DNA of 64,000 bases from Thermoanaerobaculia bacterium (lineage in GTDB: Bacteria > Acidobacteriota > Thermoanaerobaculia > Multivoradales > JAGPDF01), in NCBI GenBank assembly GCA_963719555.1, contig CAVRCL010000005.1:201606-265605 (forward strand), written 5' to 3'. The stretch's first letter is position 1; each line of letters opens with the position of its first letter. A program made the position numbers and the translations under genes. Of the stretch, positions 12,791-55,331 are shown one piece after another. The notes below the pieces were generated by a model that searched no databases, was not told where the DNA came from, and saw nothing but the letters and a program-made list of their open reading frames with translations.

Positions 12791-13049
12791 TCGCTGCAGG
12801 GCGCCAGGTCGATGAGCGATCGGCTTCCAGGTGCCTCTCGCTGGCGCGACTGCAGCCGGGCGCAAGACTGGCCTTCCGCTTGAGGCGGTCGAGCCGCTCC
12901 TCGAACGTTTCCACCGATTTCTCGATCGGCCGGATCTCGGCCACCGGCTCGCCGTGAAAGGTGATCACCACCCGCCCCCCCTGCCGCACCTTGCGCAGCA
13001 GTTCGCTGAACTTCGTCTTCGCTTCATATGTTGAATAGACGGATTCCAT
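12791..13049 (-). CDS. Phd/YefM-family antitoxin
   Basis: MESVYSTYEAKTKFSELLRKVRQGGRVVITFHGEPVAEIRPIEK is a typical Phd/YefM N-terminal fold. The supplied ORF reads through into vapC without a stop, probably because an indel removed it. Confidence 0.7.
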
Positions 13050-13244: not shown

Positions 13245-13596
13245 GGGGGCGCACCGGGTTCGACGGGGAACAGTGCGGTTCGAGGGTTGCGCATCGGGTT
13301 TGCACCCGTAAAACGGCAAGTTATACCTGCCAACGACAACTACGCTCTCGCGGCTTAATTGACCGTGACGTTCCAGCCATGGGCCATTGTCCACGGCACG
13401 GGCTGGGGCGACGCTAAAGTGGACTGAACGCTGAGGTTGGTTCCGCTCCTCAGCGGGATCGTCAAATCGGAACTGGCGCTTGCGTAGGCGGCCTTCTGCA
13501 TTGCGCAAGGGCGATGACCATAAGTGAAGGCTATGTGCGTAGATACTTTCGGGACGCGTTTCTCGGACGTGGGTTCAATTCCCACCGCCTCCACCA
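13245..13596 (+). ncRNA. ssrA: tmRNA (SsrA), one-piece; tag peptide ANDNYALAA
   Basis: 5' GGGGGCGCACCGGGTTCGACGGG, tag ORF GCCAACGACAACTACGCTCTCGCGGCTTAA (13329-13358), tRNA-like 3' end GGACGTGGGTTCAATTCCCACCGCCTCCACCA. A CATAAT -10 box lies 7 bp upstream of +1. Confidence 0.9.
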
Positions 13597-33329: not shown

Positions 33330-33419
<90 letters not shown>

Positions 33420-33439
33420 CGGTGTTGTTCCTGATTGGA

Positions 33440-33529
<90 letters not shown>

Positions 33530-33631
33530 CGTTCACAGCCGTCTTCTCAAAGAACCCGTGGCGCGAGGCGGGAACTGCTCTCTCCCCGGCCCGTTCGCCC
33601 TACTCTTTCCGCTGCCCCTTCTGCGGCACCG

Positions 33632-34262: not shown

Positions 34263-34391
34263 GAGCCGGAAGCGAAGGGTTCAGGTCCTGTGCATCGAAC
34301 GGTTCCGAACCTCGTCAGGCCCGGAAGGGAGCAGCGATAAGGTCCTCGCTTCGGGTGCCGCAGGAGTGCCGGAACCCTTCGCCTCCGGCTC
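34263..34391 (+). ncRNA. ffs: signal recognition particle RNA (small, 4.5S type)
   Basis: GTCAGGCCCGGAAGGGAGCAGC (34314-34335) matches the conserved SRP RNA domain-IV motif (E. coli GUCAGGUCCGGAAGGAAGCAGC). The 5' GAGCCGGAAGCGAAGGGTTC pairs with the 3' GAACCCTTCGCCTCCGGCTC. A TTTACA-N17-TACGAT promoter lies upstream, in the classic position before dnaX. Confidence 0.65.
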
Positions 34392-45752: not shown

Positions 45753-47110
45753 GTGCATTCCGACACTAGCTACTGGTCGCGCCTGCAGGAGCGCCTGCGT
45801 GCCATCCTCGAACCCGAGGAGTTCGCCACCTGGTTCGTTCCGCTCGTGGTGCAGAGCGAGAACGAAGCCGGCCTCGTTCTCGGCGCTCCCAACGAACGCT
45901 TCGTCCACACCCTCGAGGAGAGCTACCGCGACACGCTCGATCGCGAGGCCGGGCTGCTCTTCGACGAGTTCTTCTCCGTCACGGTGATCGCGCGAGGACG
46001 CGCTCGCCGACGCGGGTTCGTCGGCGGCTCCGGGCGCGCCCGGCGGGCCGGCGGTCGCGCGATCCTCGCGGGCGCCTTCCGCTCCGACCGGCGATCGCCT
46101 GAATCCCAAGTACCTCTTCGACACCTTCGTCGTCGGCAGCTCGAACCAGTTCGCCCACGCCGCCGCGCGCGCCGTCGCCGAGAGTCCCGGCGCACAGCTA
46201 CAACCCGCTCTTCCTCTACGGCGGCGTCGGGCTCGGCAAGACCCACCTGCTGCACGCCATCGGCCACCAGATCCTCGCATCGGCGGCCTGAGCTCAAGGT
46301 GCTCTATTTCACCGCCGAGCAGTTCGTCAACCAGTTGATCAACTCGCTGCGCTTCAAGTCGATGCACTCCTTCCGCGAGCGCTACCGGTCGATCGACGTG
46401 CTGCTGGTCGACGACATCCAGTTCCTCGCCAACAAGGAGCGCACGCAGGAGGAGTTCTTCCACACCTTCAACACGCTCTACACCAGCCAGCGGCAGATCA
46501 TCCTCTCGTCCGACTCGTCGCCGCGCAACATTCCGGCGATCGAGGAGCGTCTGCGCTCGCGTTTCGAGTGGGGCCTGATCGCCGACATCCAGGCGCCGGA
46601 TCTCGAGACCAAGGTGGCCATCCTGCGGCGCAAGGCCGACCAGGATGGCGTCGTCCTGCCCGACGACGTCGCTCTGTTCATCGCCTACCAGGTGAAGTCG
46701 AACGTGCGCGAGCTCGAGGGAATGCTCAATCGCGTCGTCGCTTTCTCCTCGCTCACCGCGAAGCCGCTGTCGCTCGAGCTCGCCAAGGAGACCCTGAAGG
46801 ACATCCTCCCCGAGGAGGGCCGCCGTGCGACGGCCGCCGACATCATCAAGTTCGTCGCCCGCCACTATGGGCTGAAGGTCAGCGAGATCAAATCGAAGTC
46901 GAACTCCAAGCAGATCGCTTTTCCGCGCCAGGTGGCGATGTTCCTCTGCAAGGAGCTCACCGAGCTCTCCTACCCGGAGATCGGCCGCCAGTTCAACGAC
47001 AAGCACCATTCGACCGTCATGTACTCGGTGGACAAGATCCTCAAGCTGCGCGCGACCGACGCCGAGCTCGAGCGCACCCTCGACGGAATGACGCGCCATC
47101 TCGGCCTGAG
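45753..47110 (+). CDS. dnaA: chromosomal replication initiator protein DnaA; frameshifts in the domain II/III region and loss of the stop at the 3' end
   Basis: N-terminus [37 protein letters not shown] (Walker A), [25 protein letters not shown] (Walker B/sensor), domain [46 protein letters not shown]. The upstream TGTGGAAAA box at 45723 reads as TTTTCCACA in reverse complement. Confidence 0.85.
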
Positions 47111-47345: not shown

Positions 47346-48464
47346 ATGGAACTACGCCTTCGGCGTGACCTCTTCCTCGCAGAACTGAGTCCGATGCAGG
47401 GGATCGTCGAACGTCGTACGACGATCCCGGTGCTGTCGCACATTCTCCTCAAGACCTCTGCGAAGAGCCTGCAGCTCGCCGCCACCGATCTCGACGTATC
47501 GCTGACCAGCGCGGTCGCGGCGGAAGTCGAAGGCCAAGGGGCGCTCGCTGTGCAGGCGAAGAAGTTCACCGAGATCGTGCGCTCGGTGGTGGCGGACGAG
47601 GTGCGGCTCAAAGTCGAAGACGACCGCACCCTGCTCATCCAGGCGGGCAAGGCGCGCTTCCGCATGCACGGTCTGCCGGCGGCCGACTTTCCCTCGCTAC
47701 CGACGGTCGAAGGCAAGGCGAAGATCGAGTTGCCGCTCGGAACACTGCCGCCGCCTGGTGAGCAAGATCCTCTTCGCGGTGTCGGGCGAGGACTCGCGCT
47801 TTCAGCTCTCCGGCGCGCTGCTGAAGATCAAGGGGAAGACGGTCGAACTGGTGGCGACCGACGGCCATCGGCTGGCGCTCATCGAGTCGCCGCACGACTT
47901 CAAGGGCGCGGTGGAGGATTCGGTGCTGGTGCCGCGCAAGGCCCTGCAGGAGCTGATGCGCATCGAGGGCGACGGCAGCGTCGTCTTCCGGCGCGGCGAG
48001 CACCACCTCTCGTTCTCGGTCGGCGGGCGCGAGATGACCTGCCGCGTGCTCGAAGGGCAGCTTCCCGGACTACGACCGGGTGATCTCGCGCGGCAACGAC
48101 AAGAAGGCGGTTCTCGACCGCAAACCCCTCGCCGAGGCGGTGCGCCGGGTGGCGATCATGACCGGCGAGAGGAACCGCGGCGTCCGCCTGGAGTTCGCCG
48201 GCGGCGAGCTCGCGATCGCCGCCGCCAACCCCGATCTCGGCGACGCCAGCGAGAGCGCTCGGCTGCGAAGTGACCGGCGGCGACATCAAGATCGGCCTCA
48301 ACCCCGACTACCTGGGGCATTTCCTCGACGCGGTCGAGACCGACAAGGTGCTGCTCGAGCTCAAGGACGAGAACAGCCAGTGCGTCGGTTCGCCGCAGCC
48401 CGAAGAGGGCAAAGGGGTGGCGGGCGAGCGCTACCTCTGCGTCATCATGCCGATGCGCATCTGA
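47346..48464 (+). CDS. dnaN: DNA polymerase III beta sliding clamp; 3 frameshifts
   Basis: MELRLRRDLFLAELSPMQGIVERRTTIPVLSHILLKT; frame 47758.. RFQLSGALLKIKGKTVELVATDGHRLA; frame 48080.. GVRLEFAGGELAIAAANPDLGDASE; frame 48270..48464 DIKIGLNPDYLGHFLDAVETDKVLLELKDENSQCV...ERYLCVIMPMRI. Confidence 0.85.
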
Positions 48465-48537
48465 AGCCGGCGCCGGCAGCCGCAGCGCCTCCGGCACCGC
48501 TCCGACTTCGCCAACTCGCCTGCCGACACCGCCAACC

Positions 48538-49645
48538 TTGCCAGCACCCGGCGCCCTCTGCCGCCTCCGCCTGGCGCGCTTCCGGGCGCTCGCGCCGACC
48601 GACTGGCGACCGGCTGCCGGGCTGGAACCTGGTTCACGGCCCCAACGGCTCCGGCAAGAGCAGTCTTCTCGAAGCGATCTACCTCGCCGCGACCGGCAAG
48701 AGCTTCCGCACGCCCACCCTGGCCGAATGCTGCGCGCGCGGCGAGGAGAGCTTTCTCGTCCAGGCGGAGGTGGCGCGCGACGGCGTGTGGGACCTGGGGC
48801 TCGCCTACTCCCGGGAGGGTCGCCGGCTGACCCTGCAGGAGAAGCCGTCCACGGTCGCCGAGCACCTGGCGCTGCTGCCGGTCGTCGCCTGGAGCGAAGC
48901 CGAGCGCGACCTGGTCGCGGGCCCGCCGGCGGGGCGCCGGCGCTTCCTCGACCGCGCGGCGCTGCTGCCTCGAGCCGCCGCGCCTTGCCGAGCACGCGGA
49001 GCTCCACCGCGTTCTGGCGCAGAAGCGTCATCTGCTCGCGGCCCGCGGCCGGGCGCGCCGGACCTCGAGGCCTGGAACGAGCTCCTGGCGCCGCTCGTCG
49101 CCCGCCGCGCGGCGGAGCGCGCCGAGCTCGCGGCGCAGCTGGGAGCGGCGGCGCGCGAGCTCGCTCGCCCGCCAGGGGTCGTCTCTGCCGCCGCTGCGAC
49201 CTCACCTATCAACCGTCACCGTCGACGGCTCTCGCGGGCGCCGCGGCCGTCGCCCAGGCCCTCGCTCACGGCCGCGAGCGAGACGAGCGGGCGCGCGGCC
49301 AACCACTGCTCGGCCCGCAGCGCGATCGGGTCGAGATCCTGCTCGAGACGAGCGCGGCGCGCCGCTCGCCGTCGGCGGGCGAGCGCAAGGTGCTCGTGCT
49401 GTCGCTCCTCGCCGGCCTCGCCGGACTCCTCAGCGCCGCCGGCCGGGCACCGCTGGTGCTGCTCGACGACCTCGACGCCGAGCTCGACCGGGAGCGCCTC
49501 GCTCGGCCGCCGGCGCTCTCTCCGCCGCGCCGCAAATCCTCGCGACCGAGCAGCCGGCCGGAGGCCTTCGAAGGCCTTCGCCGCAAGGGGCTCGGCTGGG
49601 GGCTCGCGAAGGGCGTCTATCTCAGCCTCGGCGAAGGCCAACTAA
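48538..49645 (+). CDS. recF: DNA replication and repair protein RecF; frameshifted
   Basis: LPGWNLVHGPNGSGKSSLLEAIYLAATGKSFRT (Walker A, frame 48080..), SAGERKVLVLSLLAGLAGLL...PLVLLDDLDAELD (signature and Walker B, frame 48538..). Confidence 0.75.
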
Positions 49646-49675
49646 CTTATTTATTTTCAGCACTTTGGCGCTTGT

Positions 49676-52203
<2,528 letters not shown>

Positions 52204-52464
52204 ATGCCGGAGATCAGACGGTTTCTGGGCATTGTGATTTCGATGTACTGGGACGACCACCAGCCGCCGCACTTTCATGCGAAGTACGGAAGTTCTCGTA
52301 TTACGGTGGCGATTCAGGACGGGGTGATTGAAGGGGAGTTTCCGAAGCGGGCGCGGGGGCACGTGTTGGAGTGGCTGGAACTTCACCGGGACGAGCTCAT
52401 GGAGGATTGGAACTTGATTCGTGAGCGACAGGCGCCCAAGCCGATCGCGGGGCTCGAGCAGTGA
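52204..52464 (+). CDS. DUF4160-family protein
   Basis: Intact 86 aa. [29 protein letters not shown] is the hallmark of DUF4160. The ATG directly abuts the gyrB TAG stop. Local GC ~53-55%, against ~70% flanking. Confidence 0.8.
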
Positions 52465-52724
52465 TCGTCTGGGTGACAAAGGCGAAGCCCCTGGGGGGCT
52501 ATCGCGTCTGGCTCGAGTTCAATGACGGGCTGCGAGGCGAGATGGATCTCGAGGATCGACTCTTCGGGCCGGTGTTCGAGCCCCTCAAAGACCCCTCGTA
52601 CTTCGGGCGCCTGGAGGTCAATGAGGAACTGGACACGATCGTCTGGCCCAACGGCGCCGACTTCGCGCCCGAGTTCCTCCACCAGCGCCTGCAGCGCAGT
52701 GCCGCCGAGGTCGCGGAACCGTAG
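52461..52724 (+). CDS. DUF2442-family protein
   Basis: Intact 87 aa. [16 protein letters not shown]...[25 protein letters not shown] is typical of DUF2442. 4-nt overlap with the DUF4160 gene. Confidence 0.8.
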
Positions 52725-52817
52725 CGCTCGACGAACGGGGCGAGAAGGCTCCGAACGGAACGAACATTCACCGCGGCGTCCGTTGACGTGCGCGGGTAGG
52801 AAATCGAGGAGGACGGA

Positions 52818-55331
<2,514 letters not shown>

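What the first reader, a model, noticed from the sequence alone, without database searches (positions are those of the whole stretch)
52204..52724. Low-GC DUF4160/DUF2442 gene pair inserted exactly between gyrB and gyrA
gyrB and gyrA are normally adjacent or near each other. Here a two-gene cassette starts on the nucleotide after the gyrB stop (TAG-ATG). The two ORFs overlap by 4 nt and are intact, while both flanking gyrase genes carry many indels. Local GC (~53-55% by count) is far below the ~70% of the surrounding DNA, which points to horizontal acquisition. DUF4160 and DUF2442 co-occur as a conserved pair in many genomes and have been suggested, without proof, to act like a toxin-antitoxin or addiction module. 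Sitting inside the gyrB-gyrA operon, the pair would be co-transcribed with gyrase.
Basis: partly seen in the sequence, partly recalled or inferred. Interest (0 to 1): 0.7.

Follow-up and report, generated by a model that had tools for sequence, protein, structure and literature searches.

The report
Toxin-antitoxin pair inside gyrase operon
Two small intact genes between gyrB and gyrA are a member of the experimentally validated DhiT/DhiA (DUF4160/DUF2442) toxin-antitoxin family that an ancestor of one Thermoanaerobaculia (Acidobacteriota) clade captured long ago, so this is a known kind of element in an unusual but inherited position, not a fresh insertion.

Summary
The two ORFs are real. ORF1 (52204-52464) is DUF4160, ORF2 (52461-52724) is DUF2442, the gyrB stop abuts the ORF1 start (TAG|ATG), and the ORFs overlap by 4 nt.

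gyrB and gyrA are 66-67% and the window is 70.2%.

The flanking "indels" are almost all single-base insertions that also break dnaN, about one per 250 nt. They look like assembly errors. A 521-nt error-free stretch has P about 0.13, so the pair's intactness says nothing.

DUF4160/DUF2442 is the DhiTA type II toxin-antitoxin family, validated in Dickeya, a Thermus plasmid and a Bacteroides prophage.

Nine other distinct assemblies carry the pair at the gyrB/gyrA locus; their gyrB 3' ends are 68-97% identical to one another. The gyrase-linked pairs are monophyletic (bootstrap 195/200) and under purifying selection (dN/dS 0.07-0.21). The nearest outgroup genomes have gyrB directly next to gyrA. 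This points to one old capture followed by vertical inheritance.

In every locus an upstream ORF's stop touches the toxin start, which implies read-through transcription and translational coupling.

In relatives the same site also holds Mrr, an HEC-04-like ATPase, PDC-M71 and an ankyrin gene, so it is a small defence hot spot.

Interest is moderate to low.

The parts
49676..52203 (+). gyrB. The reading frame is broken by 11 single-base insertions, taken to be assembly errors. The start is approximate; the protein alignment begins at 49754.
   Evidence: Frameshift-aware alignment to the L007 GyrB protein. DNA alignments to the intact gyrB of L001 and L003 show +1-nt insertions in the window.
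52201..52206 (+). Junction TAG|ATG: the gyrB stop codon directly abuts the toxin start codon. No Shine-Dalgarno-like sequence lies upstream.
   Evidence: Sequence. The same stop/start abutment or 1-nt overlap (-1 to +3 nt) is found in L001, L003, L166, L175, L176 and L179. It is also found where the upstream ORF is a different gene (L002, L167, L173).
52204..52464 (+). DhiT-like toxin gene (DUF4160), 86 aa, with the conserved W16-D18-H19-P22-H23-F24-H25-Y28 motif intact.
   Evidence: Pfam PF13711, E 4.6e-21. NCBIfam NF048015 toxin_DhiT, 82 bits over 1-83 of 84 positions, below the equivalog cut-off of 100. All invariant columns of 55 homologues are retained. dN/dS is 0.07-0.21.
52461..52724 (+). 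Short DhiA-like antitoxin gene (DUF2442 domain only), 87 aa. Its GTG start overlaps the toxin stop by 4 nt.
52725..52817 (+). Spacer of 93 nt before gyrA, with GGAGGA before the gyrA ATG. It has no homology to the Mrr gene that occupies this position in relatives.
   Evidence: No terminator-like or promoter-like site. Fold z-score -0.63.
52818..55331 (+). gyrA. The reading frame is broken by about 10 single-base errors.
   Evidence: 95% nt identity to the gyrA of L173, with 10 one-base gaps.

Best explanation
The pair is a chromosomal DhiTA-family (DUF4160 toxin, DUF2442 antitoxin) type II toxin-antitoxin module.

Origin. It was captured once, in the gyrB-gyrA spacer near oriC (gene order dnaA-dnaN-recF-gyrB-T-A-gyrA), by an ancestor of one Thermoanaerobaculia clade. 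It has been inherited vertically since.

Expression (inferred). It has no room for its own promoter or ribosome-binding site. It is transcribed as part of the gyrB-gyrA message. Ribosomes finishing gyrB reinitiate at the abutting toxin start codon, and ribosomes finishing the toxin reinitiate at the overlapping antitoxin start codon.

Action (by homology with validated family members). The toxin arrests growth unless it is bound by the antitoxin. The module is therefore hard to lose (addiction) and may add abortive-infection-type protection. The toxin's biochemical target is unknown. A conserved His-rich WDDHxPPHFH motif suggests a metal-dependent enzyme; this is speculation.

Site. In relatives the same site has accumulated further defence genes, so the pair is the constant core of a small defence hot spot. 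In this window only the pair is present.
For: Family assignment:
- Pfam hits for both ORFs and the NCBIfam DhiT hit.
- The DUF2442 fold matches PDB 2AUW.
- Toxin-first order with DUF2442 immediately downstream is seen in 75 of 80 distant loci.

Family function shown by others:
- The toxin is toxic, its partner neutralises it, the two genes are co-transcribed, and the complex represses the operon in Dickeya (PMC8198452).
- Plasmid persistence and a lethal antitoxin deletion in Thermus (PMC12724237).
- Toxin and rescue on a Bacteroides prophage (bioRxiv 10.64898/2026.06.25.734096).
- DUF4160 is an effector domain of Menshen NsnC proteins (PMC12065111).

One old capture followed by vertical inheritance:
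- The pair is present at the gyrB/gyrA locus in L001, L002, L003-5, L166, L167, L173 and L175-179.
- It is absent from the nearest outgroups L006-L012.
- The 7 gyrase-linked pairs are monophyletic against 77 unlinked pairs: bootstrap 195/200 for toxin and antitoxin concatenated, 91/100 for the toxin, 64/100 for the antitoxin.
- Divergence of the pair tracks the adjacent gyrB 3' end (r = 0.67).
- GC3 follows each host but lags by 7-15 points.

Still functional: dN/dS is 0.07-0.21 and all invariant residues are kept.

Coupling: stop/start abutment is seen in all loci whatever the upstream ORF, and there is no promoter-like site, terminator-like site or structured spacer.

Defence hot spot:
- Mrr type IV restriction enzyme in L001, L002, L167 and L173.
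- HEC-04-like ATPase in L002 (E 2e-57).
- PDC-M71A/B in L173 (E 3e-94 and 3e-112) and a PDC-M72A-like ankyrin protein.
- These cargo genes have GC3 of 59-75%, so they look younger than the pair.
Against: - Nothing here tests toxicity, neutralisation or transcription in this organism.
- ORF1 scores below NCBI's DhiT equivalog cut-off (82 against 100 bits).
- ORF2 covers only the first third or so of the 160-position DhiA model (18 bits). It therefore lacks the part that, in long DhiA/NE0471-type proteins, is presumed to bind DNA.
- The canonical self-repressed promoter of DhiTA is not present.
- A toxin-first, translationally coupled layout gives no obvious way to make antitoxin in excess.
- One sub-lineage (L175-177) carries a frameshift in the toxin, and L002 has H23Q/F24V in the motif. 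The toxin is therefore dispensable and may be attenuated elsewhere.
- PADLOC has no model matching either ORF.
- The promoter scan uses only an E. coli-type consensus.
Confidence: 0.7

Rival explanations
1. Recent horizontal insertion of a low-GC cassette into this particular genome.
For: The pair's GC (62.2%) lies at the 2.6th percentile of the window. Its GC3 is below that of the gyrase genes. The family is found on plasmids and phages.
Against: Orthologous pairs sit at the same junction in assemblies whose gyrB 3' ends are only about 77-85% identical to the window's. The linked pairs are monophyletic. GC3 tracks each host. There are no flanking repeats and no integrase or transposase. The true GC deficit against the neighbouring gyrase genes is only 4-5 points.
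Confidence: 0.04
2. Gyrase-related function: the toxin poisons or modulates DNA gyrase (like CcdB or ParE), or the two proteins are accessory factors of gyrase. This would explain the position inside the gyrBA operon.
For: The position between gyrB and gyrA is conserved and the coupling to gyrB is tight. Several unrelated toxin-antitoxin toxins do target gyrase (general knowledge; PMC3001019).
Against: None of 80 more distant DUF4160 loci has gyrB or gyrA nearby. Within the clade, other genes (an ATPase, PDC-M71, a gyrA 5' remnant) can separate the pair from gyrB. Unrelated defence genes share the site. DhiT overexpression caused no filamentation, whereas the gyrase poison CcdB2 did in E. coli (PMC8198452, section 2.2). 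The toxin is frameshifted in L175-177 without loss of the gyrase genes.
Confidence: 0.07
3. Domesticated or inert remnant: the pair no longer acts as a toxin-antitoxin module. It persists only because deleting DNA between two essential, co-translated genes is risky, or because the ORFs serve as a translational bridge towards gyrA.
For: Toxin frameshift with the antitoxin retained in L175-177. Motif substitutions in L002. Very short ORF2-gyrA spacers in relatives: 7 nt in L176 and 25 nt in L179. No promoter of its own.
Against: Strong purifying selection on both proteins (dN/dS 0.07-0.21). All family-invariant toxin residues are kept in the window. A mere spacer would not conserve protein sequence.
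Confidence: 0.15
4. Assembly chimera: the pair was joined to the gyrase genes by mis-assembly of an error-rich long-read data set.
For: The window clearly contains many consensus errors.
Against: The same junctions are seen in independent short-read and long-read assemblies from NCBI, ENA, JGI and Logan.
Confidence: 0.01

Closest known systems
DhiTA type II toxin-antitoxin system of Dickeya dadantii 3937 (DUF4160 toxin DhiT, DUF2442 antitoxin DhiA; PMC8198452; NCBIfam NF048015 and NF048016)
   Same: Same two Pfam domains. Same toxin-first order with overlapping or abutting genes. Near full-length match of ORF1 to the DhiT model (positions 1-83 of 84, E 3e-23).
   Different: ORF1 is below the equivalog cut-off. 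ORF2 is 87 aa against a 160-position DhiA model and has only the DUF2442 domain. There is no promoter region of its own (dhiTA has a self-repressed promoter). It is embedded in the gyrBA operon and coupled to the gyrB stop codon.
Persistence-enhancing module (DUF4160 87 aa / DUF2442 92 aa) of Thermus thermophilus plasmids (PMC12724237)
   Same: Short-antitoxin form, like the pair here. About 49% identity of the toxin to ORF1 (hits H11 and H12). Toxin-first tandem ORFs.
   Different: The Thermus module is plasmid-borne and stabilises the plasmid. The pair here is chromosomal, next to oriC, between two essential genes.
NE0471 of Nitrosomonas europaea (PDB 2AUW, 'putative DNA binding protein')
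   Different: The NE0471 chain is 155 residues with an extra C-terminal domain that ORF2 lacks.
Defence islands or hot spots at conserved chromosomal sites
   Same: In relatives the gyrB-gyrA site carries variable sets of defence-type genes: an Mrr type IV restriction enzyme, an HEC-04-like ATPase, PDC-M71A/B and a PDC-M72A-like ankyrin protein.
   Different: Very small (0.5-5.5 kb). It lies inside an essential operon. No integrase or repeats were found. In this window it holds only the toxin-antitoxin pair.
Cargo between gyrB and gyrA in Caldalkalibacillus thermarum TA2.A1 (4.7 kb; PMC7561548)
   Same: Shows that the gyrB-gyrA spacer can accept inserted genes.
   Different: That cargo is transport and regulatory genes, not a toxin-antitoxin or defence module, and it is in an unrelated phylum.

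Membership tests
DhiTA (DUF4160/DUF2442) type II toxin-antitoxin family | Toxin carries the DUF4160 domain (PF13711) | tested here: met
   E 4.6e-21, 75.2 bits against a cut-off of 23, profile positions 1-65 of 65.
DhiTA (DUF4160/DUF2442) type II toxin-antitoxin family | Toxin reaches the NCBIfam equivalog score for DhiT (NF048015, 100 bits) | tested here: not met
   82.1 bits, E 3.3e-23, positions 1-83 of 84. ORF1 is a homologue, not an equivalog of the Dickeya protein.
DhiTA (DUF4160/DUF2442) type II toxin-antitoxin family | Family-invariant toxin residues are retained (W16, D18, H19, P22, H25, A26, Y28 and others; H23 and F24 are conserved in at least 90%) | tested here: met
   Alignment of 55 homologues; the window sequence has every invariant residue.
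DhiTA (DUF4160/DUF2442) type II toxin-antitoxin family | Partner carries the DUF2442 domain (PF10387) and fold | tested here: met
DhiTA (DUF4160/DUF2442) type II toxin-antitoxin family | Antitoxin reaches the NCBIfam equivalog score for DhiA (NF048016, 200 bits; 160-position model) | tested here: not met
   18 bits, covering positions 11-68 of 160. ORF2 is the short, single-domain form.
DhiTA (DUF4160/DUF2442) type II toxin-antitoxin family | Toxin gene first, antitoxin immediately downstream on the same strand | tested here: met
   4-nt overlap in the window. The same order is seen in 75 of 80 distant loci.
DhiTA (DUF4160/DUF2442) type II toxin-antitoxin family | Own promoter, repressed by the antitoxin or the toxin-antitoxin complex | tested here: not met
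   0 nt between the gyrB stop and the ORF1 start. No sigma-70-like site in 51700-53000. The scan uses a simple consensus only, so a promoter inside the gyrB coding sequence cannot be excluded.
DhiTA (DUF4160/DUF2442) type II toxin-antitoxin family | Toxin inhibits growth and the cognate antitoxin neutralises it | not testable with these tools
   Needs expression experiments. Shown only for homologues (PMC8198452, PMC12724237, bioRxiv 10.64898/2026.06.25.734096).
Recently acquired genomic islet or mobile cassette | Absent from close relatives at the same site | tested here: not met
   Present in every clade member found (L001-5, L166, L167, L173-179). Absent only from outgroups with GyrB of 69% identity or less.
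Recently acquired genomic islet or mobile cassette | Flanking direct repeats, att sites, or a mobility gene | tested here: not met
   Only chance-level repeats. No integrase or transposase ORF between gyrB and gyrA.
Recently acquired genomic islet or mobile cassette | Composition clearly different from the host | tested here: inconclusive
   GC is 62.2% against 66-67% in the flanking genes. GC3 is 75% and 86% against 89-94% for gyrase genes. GC3 rises and falls with the host across relatives.
Defence island or hot spot | Clustering with known or candidate defence genes | tested here: inconclusive
   Met in relatives: Mrr, an HEC-04-like ATPase, PDC-M71A/B and a PDC-M72A-like protein. Not met in this window, which holds the pair alone. 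Neither ORF matches any PADLOC model.

The most novel reading that the evidence does not exclude
The module works as a built-in alarm on the gyrase operon. Toxin and antitoxin synthesis depend entirely on gyrB transcription and translation. Anything that shuts down or distorts gyrBA expression would therefore stop antitoxin supply and free the toxin. Candidate triggers are phage host shut-off, phage gyrase inhibitors and abrupt supercoiling changes. This would make an essential-operon-embedded abortive-infection switch, around which further defence genes have gathered.
Probability: 0.1. Interest if true: 0.65.

Novelty: new member of a known kind. Interest (0 to 1): 0.33.

Why it matters
The pair is a clear example of a selfish or defensive toxin-antitoxin module that became a stable, vertically inherited part of an essential operon next to the replication origin. 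It appears to have lost any promoter of its own and to depend on translational coupling to gyrB. The site also shows how a spacer inside a housekeeping operon can become a landing pad for defence genes in an uncultured acidobacterial lineage. If the coupling were shown experimentally, it would be an unusual regulatory variant of type II toxin-antitoxin systems. As it stands, this is a known family in an uncommon context, and most of the features that made it look striking do not hold up: the very low GC was a miscount, the intactness amid decay comes from assembly errors, and the function is no longer unproven.

Tried and rejected
- Exact-sequence look-ups of both ORFs found nothing.
- PDB sequence and profile searches for both proteins found nothing useful.
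- I considered reading the HFH motif as an HUH-endonuclease motif. No fold support was found, so I dropped it.
- The promoter/terminator scan and the fold of the spacer found nothing.
- The repeat search found only chance matches. A 15-nt similarity between the gyrB 3' end (52091-52105) and the gyrA 5' end (52858-52872) was not pursued.
- The metagenome scan with ORF1 returned only distant homologues (62% identity or less) and no further clade members.
- The window's 93-nt spacer has no homology to the Mrr gene of relatives. I could not tell whether Mrr was lost here or never present.
- tblastn alone could not place the frameshifts, so I wrote a frameshift-aware alignment.

Full report
**1. 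What is in the sequence**

ORF1 (52204-52464, 86 aa) and ORF2 (52461-52724, 87 aa) lie on the + strand.
- Pfam assigns ORF1 to DUF4160 (E 4.6e-21) and ORF2 to DUF2442 (E 1.8e-12). Both are well above the curated cut-offs.
- The gyrB stop TAG (52201-52203) is followed immediately by the ORF1 ATG. ORF1 and ORF2 overlap by 4 nt (GTGA). gyrA begins at 52818 after a 93-nt spacer with a GGAGGA ribosome-binding site.
- Synteny with L179 shows the wider gene order is S49 peptidase-dnaA-dnaN-recF-gyrB-ORF1-ORF2-gyrA. This is the origin-proximal region.

**2. Composition**

- The pair is 62.2% GC (ORF1 59.0%, ORF2 65.2%). gyrB is 66.4%, gyrA 67.1% and the window 70.2%. The pair lies at the 2.6th percentile of 521-nt windows.
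- The clearer signal is GC3. In relatives with intact genes, gyrase GC3 is 89-94%. The pair in the window has 75% and 86%.
- Across relatives the pair's GC3 follows the host. It is 86-91% where host genes are about 96% (L179), and 73% where the host is about 80% (L175). It stays 7-15 points lower. Extra genes at the same site have 59-75%.
- I read this as an old, largely ameliorated resident, with younger cargo beside it in some strains.

**3. The 'indels'**

A frameshift-aware protein-to-DNA alignment finds 11 frameshifts in gyrB, about 10 in gyrA and 3 in dnaN.
- DNA alignments to intact orthologues show they are almost all single-base insertions in the window.
- Three essential genes are riddled with +1 insertions while orthologues 86-95% identical are intact. 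This means consensus errors, not gene decay.
- At about 24 events per 6.1 kb, the chance of none in 521 nt is about 0.13. Clean stretches of 450-770 nt occur inside gyrB and gyrA themselves.
- The intactness of the pair therefore carries no information.
- The exact TAG|ATG junction could itself be touched by an error. The closest relatives read TAG-G-GTG.

**4. Relatives**

Homologues of ORF1 and ORF2 led to contigs from NCBI, ENA, JGI and Logan:

| Locus | Source | Arrangement |
|---|---|---|
| L179 | JGI 3300009868 | dnaA-dnaN-recF-gyrB-T-A-gyrA, as in the window |
| L001 | Thermoanaerobaculia MAG GCA_039932315.1 | gyrB-T-A-Mrr-gyrA |
| L002 | Logan SRR1027651 | gyrB-(HEC-04-like ATPase)-T-A-Mrr-gyrA |
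| L003-5, L166 | ENA | gyrB-T-A (contig ends) |
| L175-178 | MAG GCA_039933785.1 and three Logan runs | gyrB-(frameshifted T)-A-gyrA |
| L173, L167 | ENA ERZ25039527 (L173); Logan SRR26787648 (L167) | L173: PDC-M71A/B-(decayed copy of the gyrA 5' end)-T-A-Mrr-ankyrin protein-gyrA; L167 (1-kb contig) shows only the gyrA 5' remnant-T-A-Mrr part |

T is the toxin gene and A the antitoxin gene.

- The nearest species representatives in the genome collection (L006-L012; GyrB 54-69% identical) have gyrB followed by gyrA after 5-260 nt, with no pair.
- None of 80 more distant DUF4160 loci has a gyrase gene nearby, and 75 of them have DUF2442 just downstream.
- In neighbour-joining trees the 7 gyrase-linked pairs form one clade against 77 unlinked pairs. 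Bootstrap support is 195/200 concatenated, 91/100 for the toxin and 64/100 for the antitoxin.
- Divergence of the pair follows that of the adjacent gyrB 3' end (r = 0.67).
- dN/dS is 0.07-0.21 for the toxin and 0.07-0.12 for the antitoxin.
- Together this supports a single old capture, vertical inheritance and continued selection on both proteins.

**5. What the family is**

- DUF4160/DUF2442 was named DhiTA in Dickeya dadantii 3937. There the toxin inhibits growth of Dickeya and E. coli, the pair is harmless, the genes are co-transcribed toxin-first, and the complex represses the promoter. Toxin overexpression caused no filamentation (PMC8198452).
- In Thermus thermophilus plasmids the pair raises plasmid persistence, and deleting the second ORF prevents transformation (PMC12724237).
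- A Bacteroides prophage DhiTA was also shown to be toxic and rescued (bioRxiv 10.64898/2026.06.25.734096).
- DUF4160 also occurs as an effector domain in Menshen NsnC proteins, with no structural homologue found (PMC12065111).
- NCBIfam now has DhiT and DhiA models. ORF1 hits DhiT over nearly its full length at 82 bits (cut-off 100). ORF2 hits only the first part of the 160-position DhiA model.
- The family is on 34 plasmid records and 5 phage records.

**6. How it probably works here**

Shown:
- In every locus the stop codon of the upstream ORF abuts or overlaps the toxin start (-1 to +3 nt). This holds whether that ORF is gyrB, an ATPase gene or a remnant of the gyrA 5' end.
- The toxin stop overlaps or lies within a few nt of the antitoxin start.
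- The ORF2-gyrA spacer is 7-93 nt.
- No promoter-like or terminator-like site and no significant structure were found.

Inferred:
- The pair is transcribed with gyrB and gyrA.
- It is translated by termination-reinitiation.
- It acts as a growth-arrest/antidote pair that resists loss. It may also contribute to phage defence, in line with the defence genes that share the site in relatives.

Unknown: the toxin's target. The conserved WDDHxPPHFH motif hints at metal binding.

**7. Rivals**

- Recent insertion is contradicted by section 4.
- A gyrase-directed function is contradicted by four observations. There is no gyrase linkage outside the clade. Other genes interrupt the gyrB-toxin adjacency in some strains. 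DhiT causes no filamentation. The toxin is frameshifted in L175-177.
- An inert remnant is contradicted by purifying selection, though the L175-177 frameshift and the L002 motif changes show the toxin can be lost.
- Mis-assembly is excluded by independent assemblies.

**8. Verdict**

This is a known toxin-antitoxin family in an unusual, clade-specific and old position inside the gyrBA operon. In relatives the site doubles as a small defence hot spot. Interest is moderate to low. The main open point worth an experiment is the apparent promoter-less, gyrB-coupled expression.

Noticed in passing
window 47346-55331 (dnaN, gyrB, gyrA): Pervasive single-base insertions break all three essential genes, about one per 250 nt. 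The window looks like an unpolished long-read consensus, so any 'pseudogene' call in this window should be distrusted.
   Followed up: yes
L175 9742-10003; L176 897-1158; L177 111-372: In one sub-lineage (MAG GCA_039933785.1 and three Logan runs) the toxin gene has one -1 frameshift exactly inside the conserved PPHFH motif. The antitoxin (96 aa) is intact and sits 7 nt before gyrA. The sequence is identical in all assemblies, so the change is probably real: toxin lost, antitoxin kept.
   Followed up: partly
L173 2687-2830; L167 1-120: A decayed duplicate of the gyrA 5' end (ribosome-binding site, ATG and about 25 codons) lies just upstream of the toxin gene. Its ORF ends at a TAG that overlaps the toxin GTG, so it takes gyrB's place as the coupled upstream ORF. 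This would fit integration of a circular islet by recombination at the gyrA 5' end. In L173 no gyrB lies within the 2.7 kb upstream, where the contig starts.
   Followed up: partly
L173 2-2568 and 4348-5517; L002 245-1780; L001 2011-2901: Cargo genes share the site in relatives. They are PDC-M71A (a kinase, E 3e-94) with PDC-M71B (E 3e-112), a PDC-M72A-like ankyrin/DnaJ-like protein, an HEC-04-like ATPase (E 2e-57) and an Mrr type IV restriction enzyme. All have lower GC3 (59-75%) than the host genes.
   Followed up: partly
L002 1805-2062: The L002 toxin has H23Q, F24V and W57R at otherwise highly conserved positions. It may be an attenuated toxin.
   Followed up: no
window 13245-13596; 33331-33530; 34279-34378: A tmRNA gene (tag ANDNYALAA), two adjacent tRNA-Ser genes (anticodons CGA and GGA) on the - strand, and the small SRP RNA. 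The lowest-GC stretches of the window lie near 13000 (by the tmRNA gene) and near 46500 (in the dnaA region).
   Followed up: no
window 52091-52105 and 52858-52872: A 15-nt near-identical stretch (AGGACGACATCGAAG and AGGTCGACATCGAAG) occurs in the gyrB 3' end and the gyrA 5' end, on either side of the pair. It may be chance, or a microhomology that could mediate deletion.
   Followed up: no
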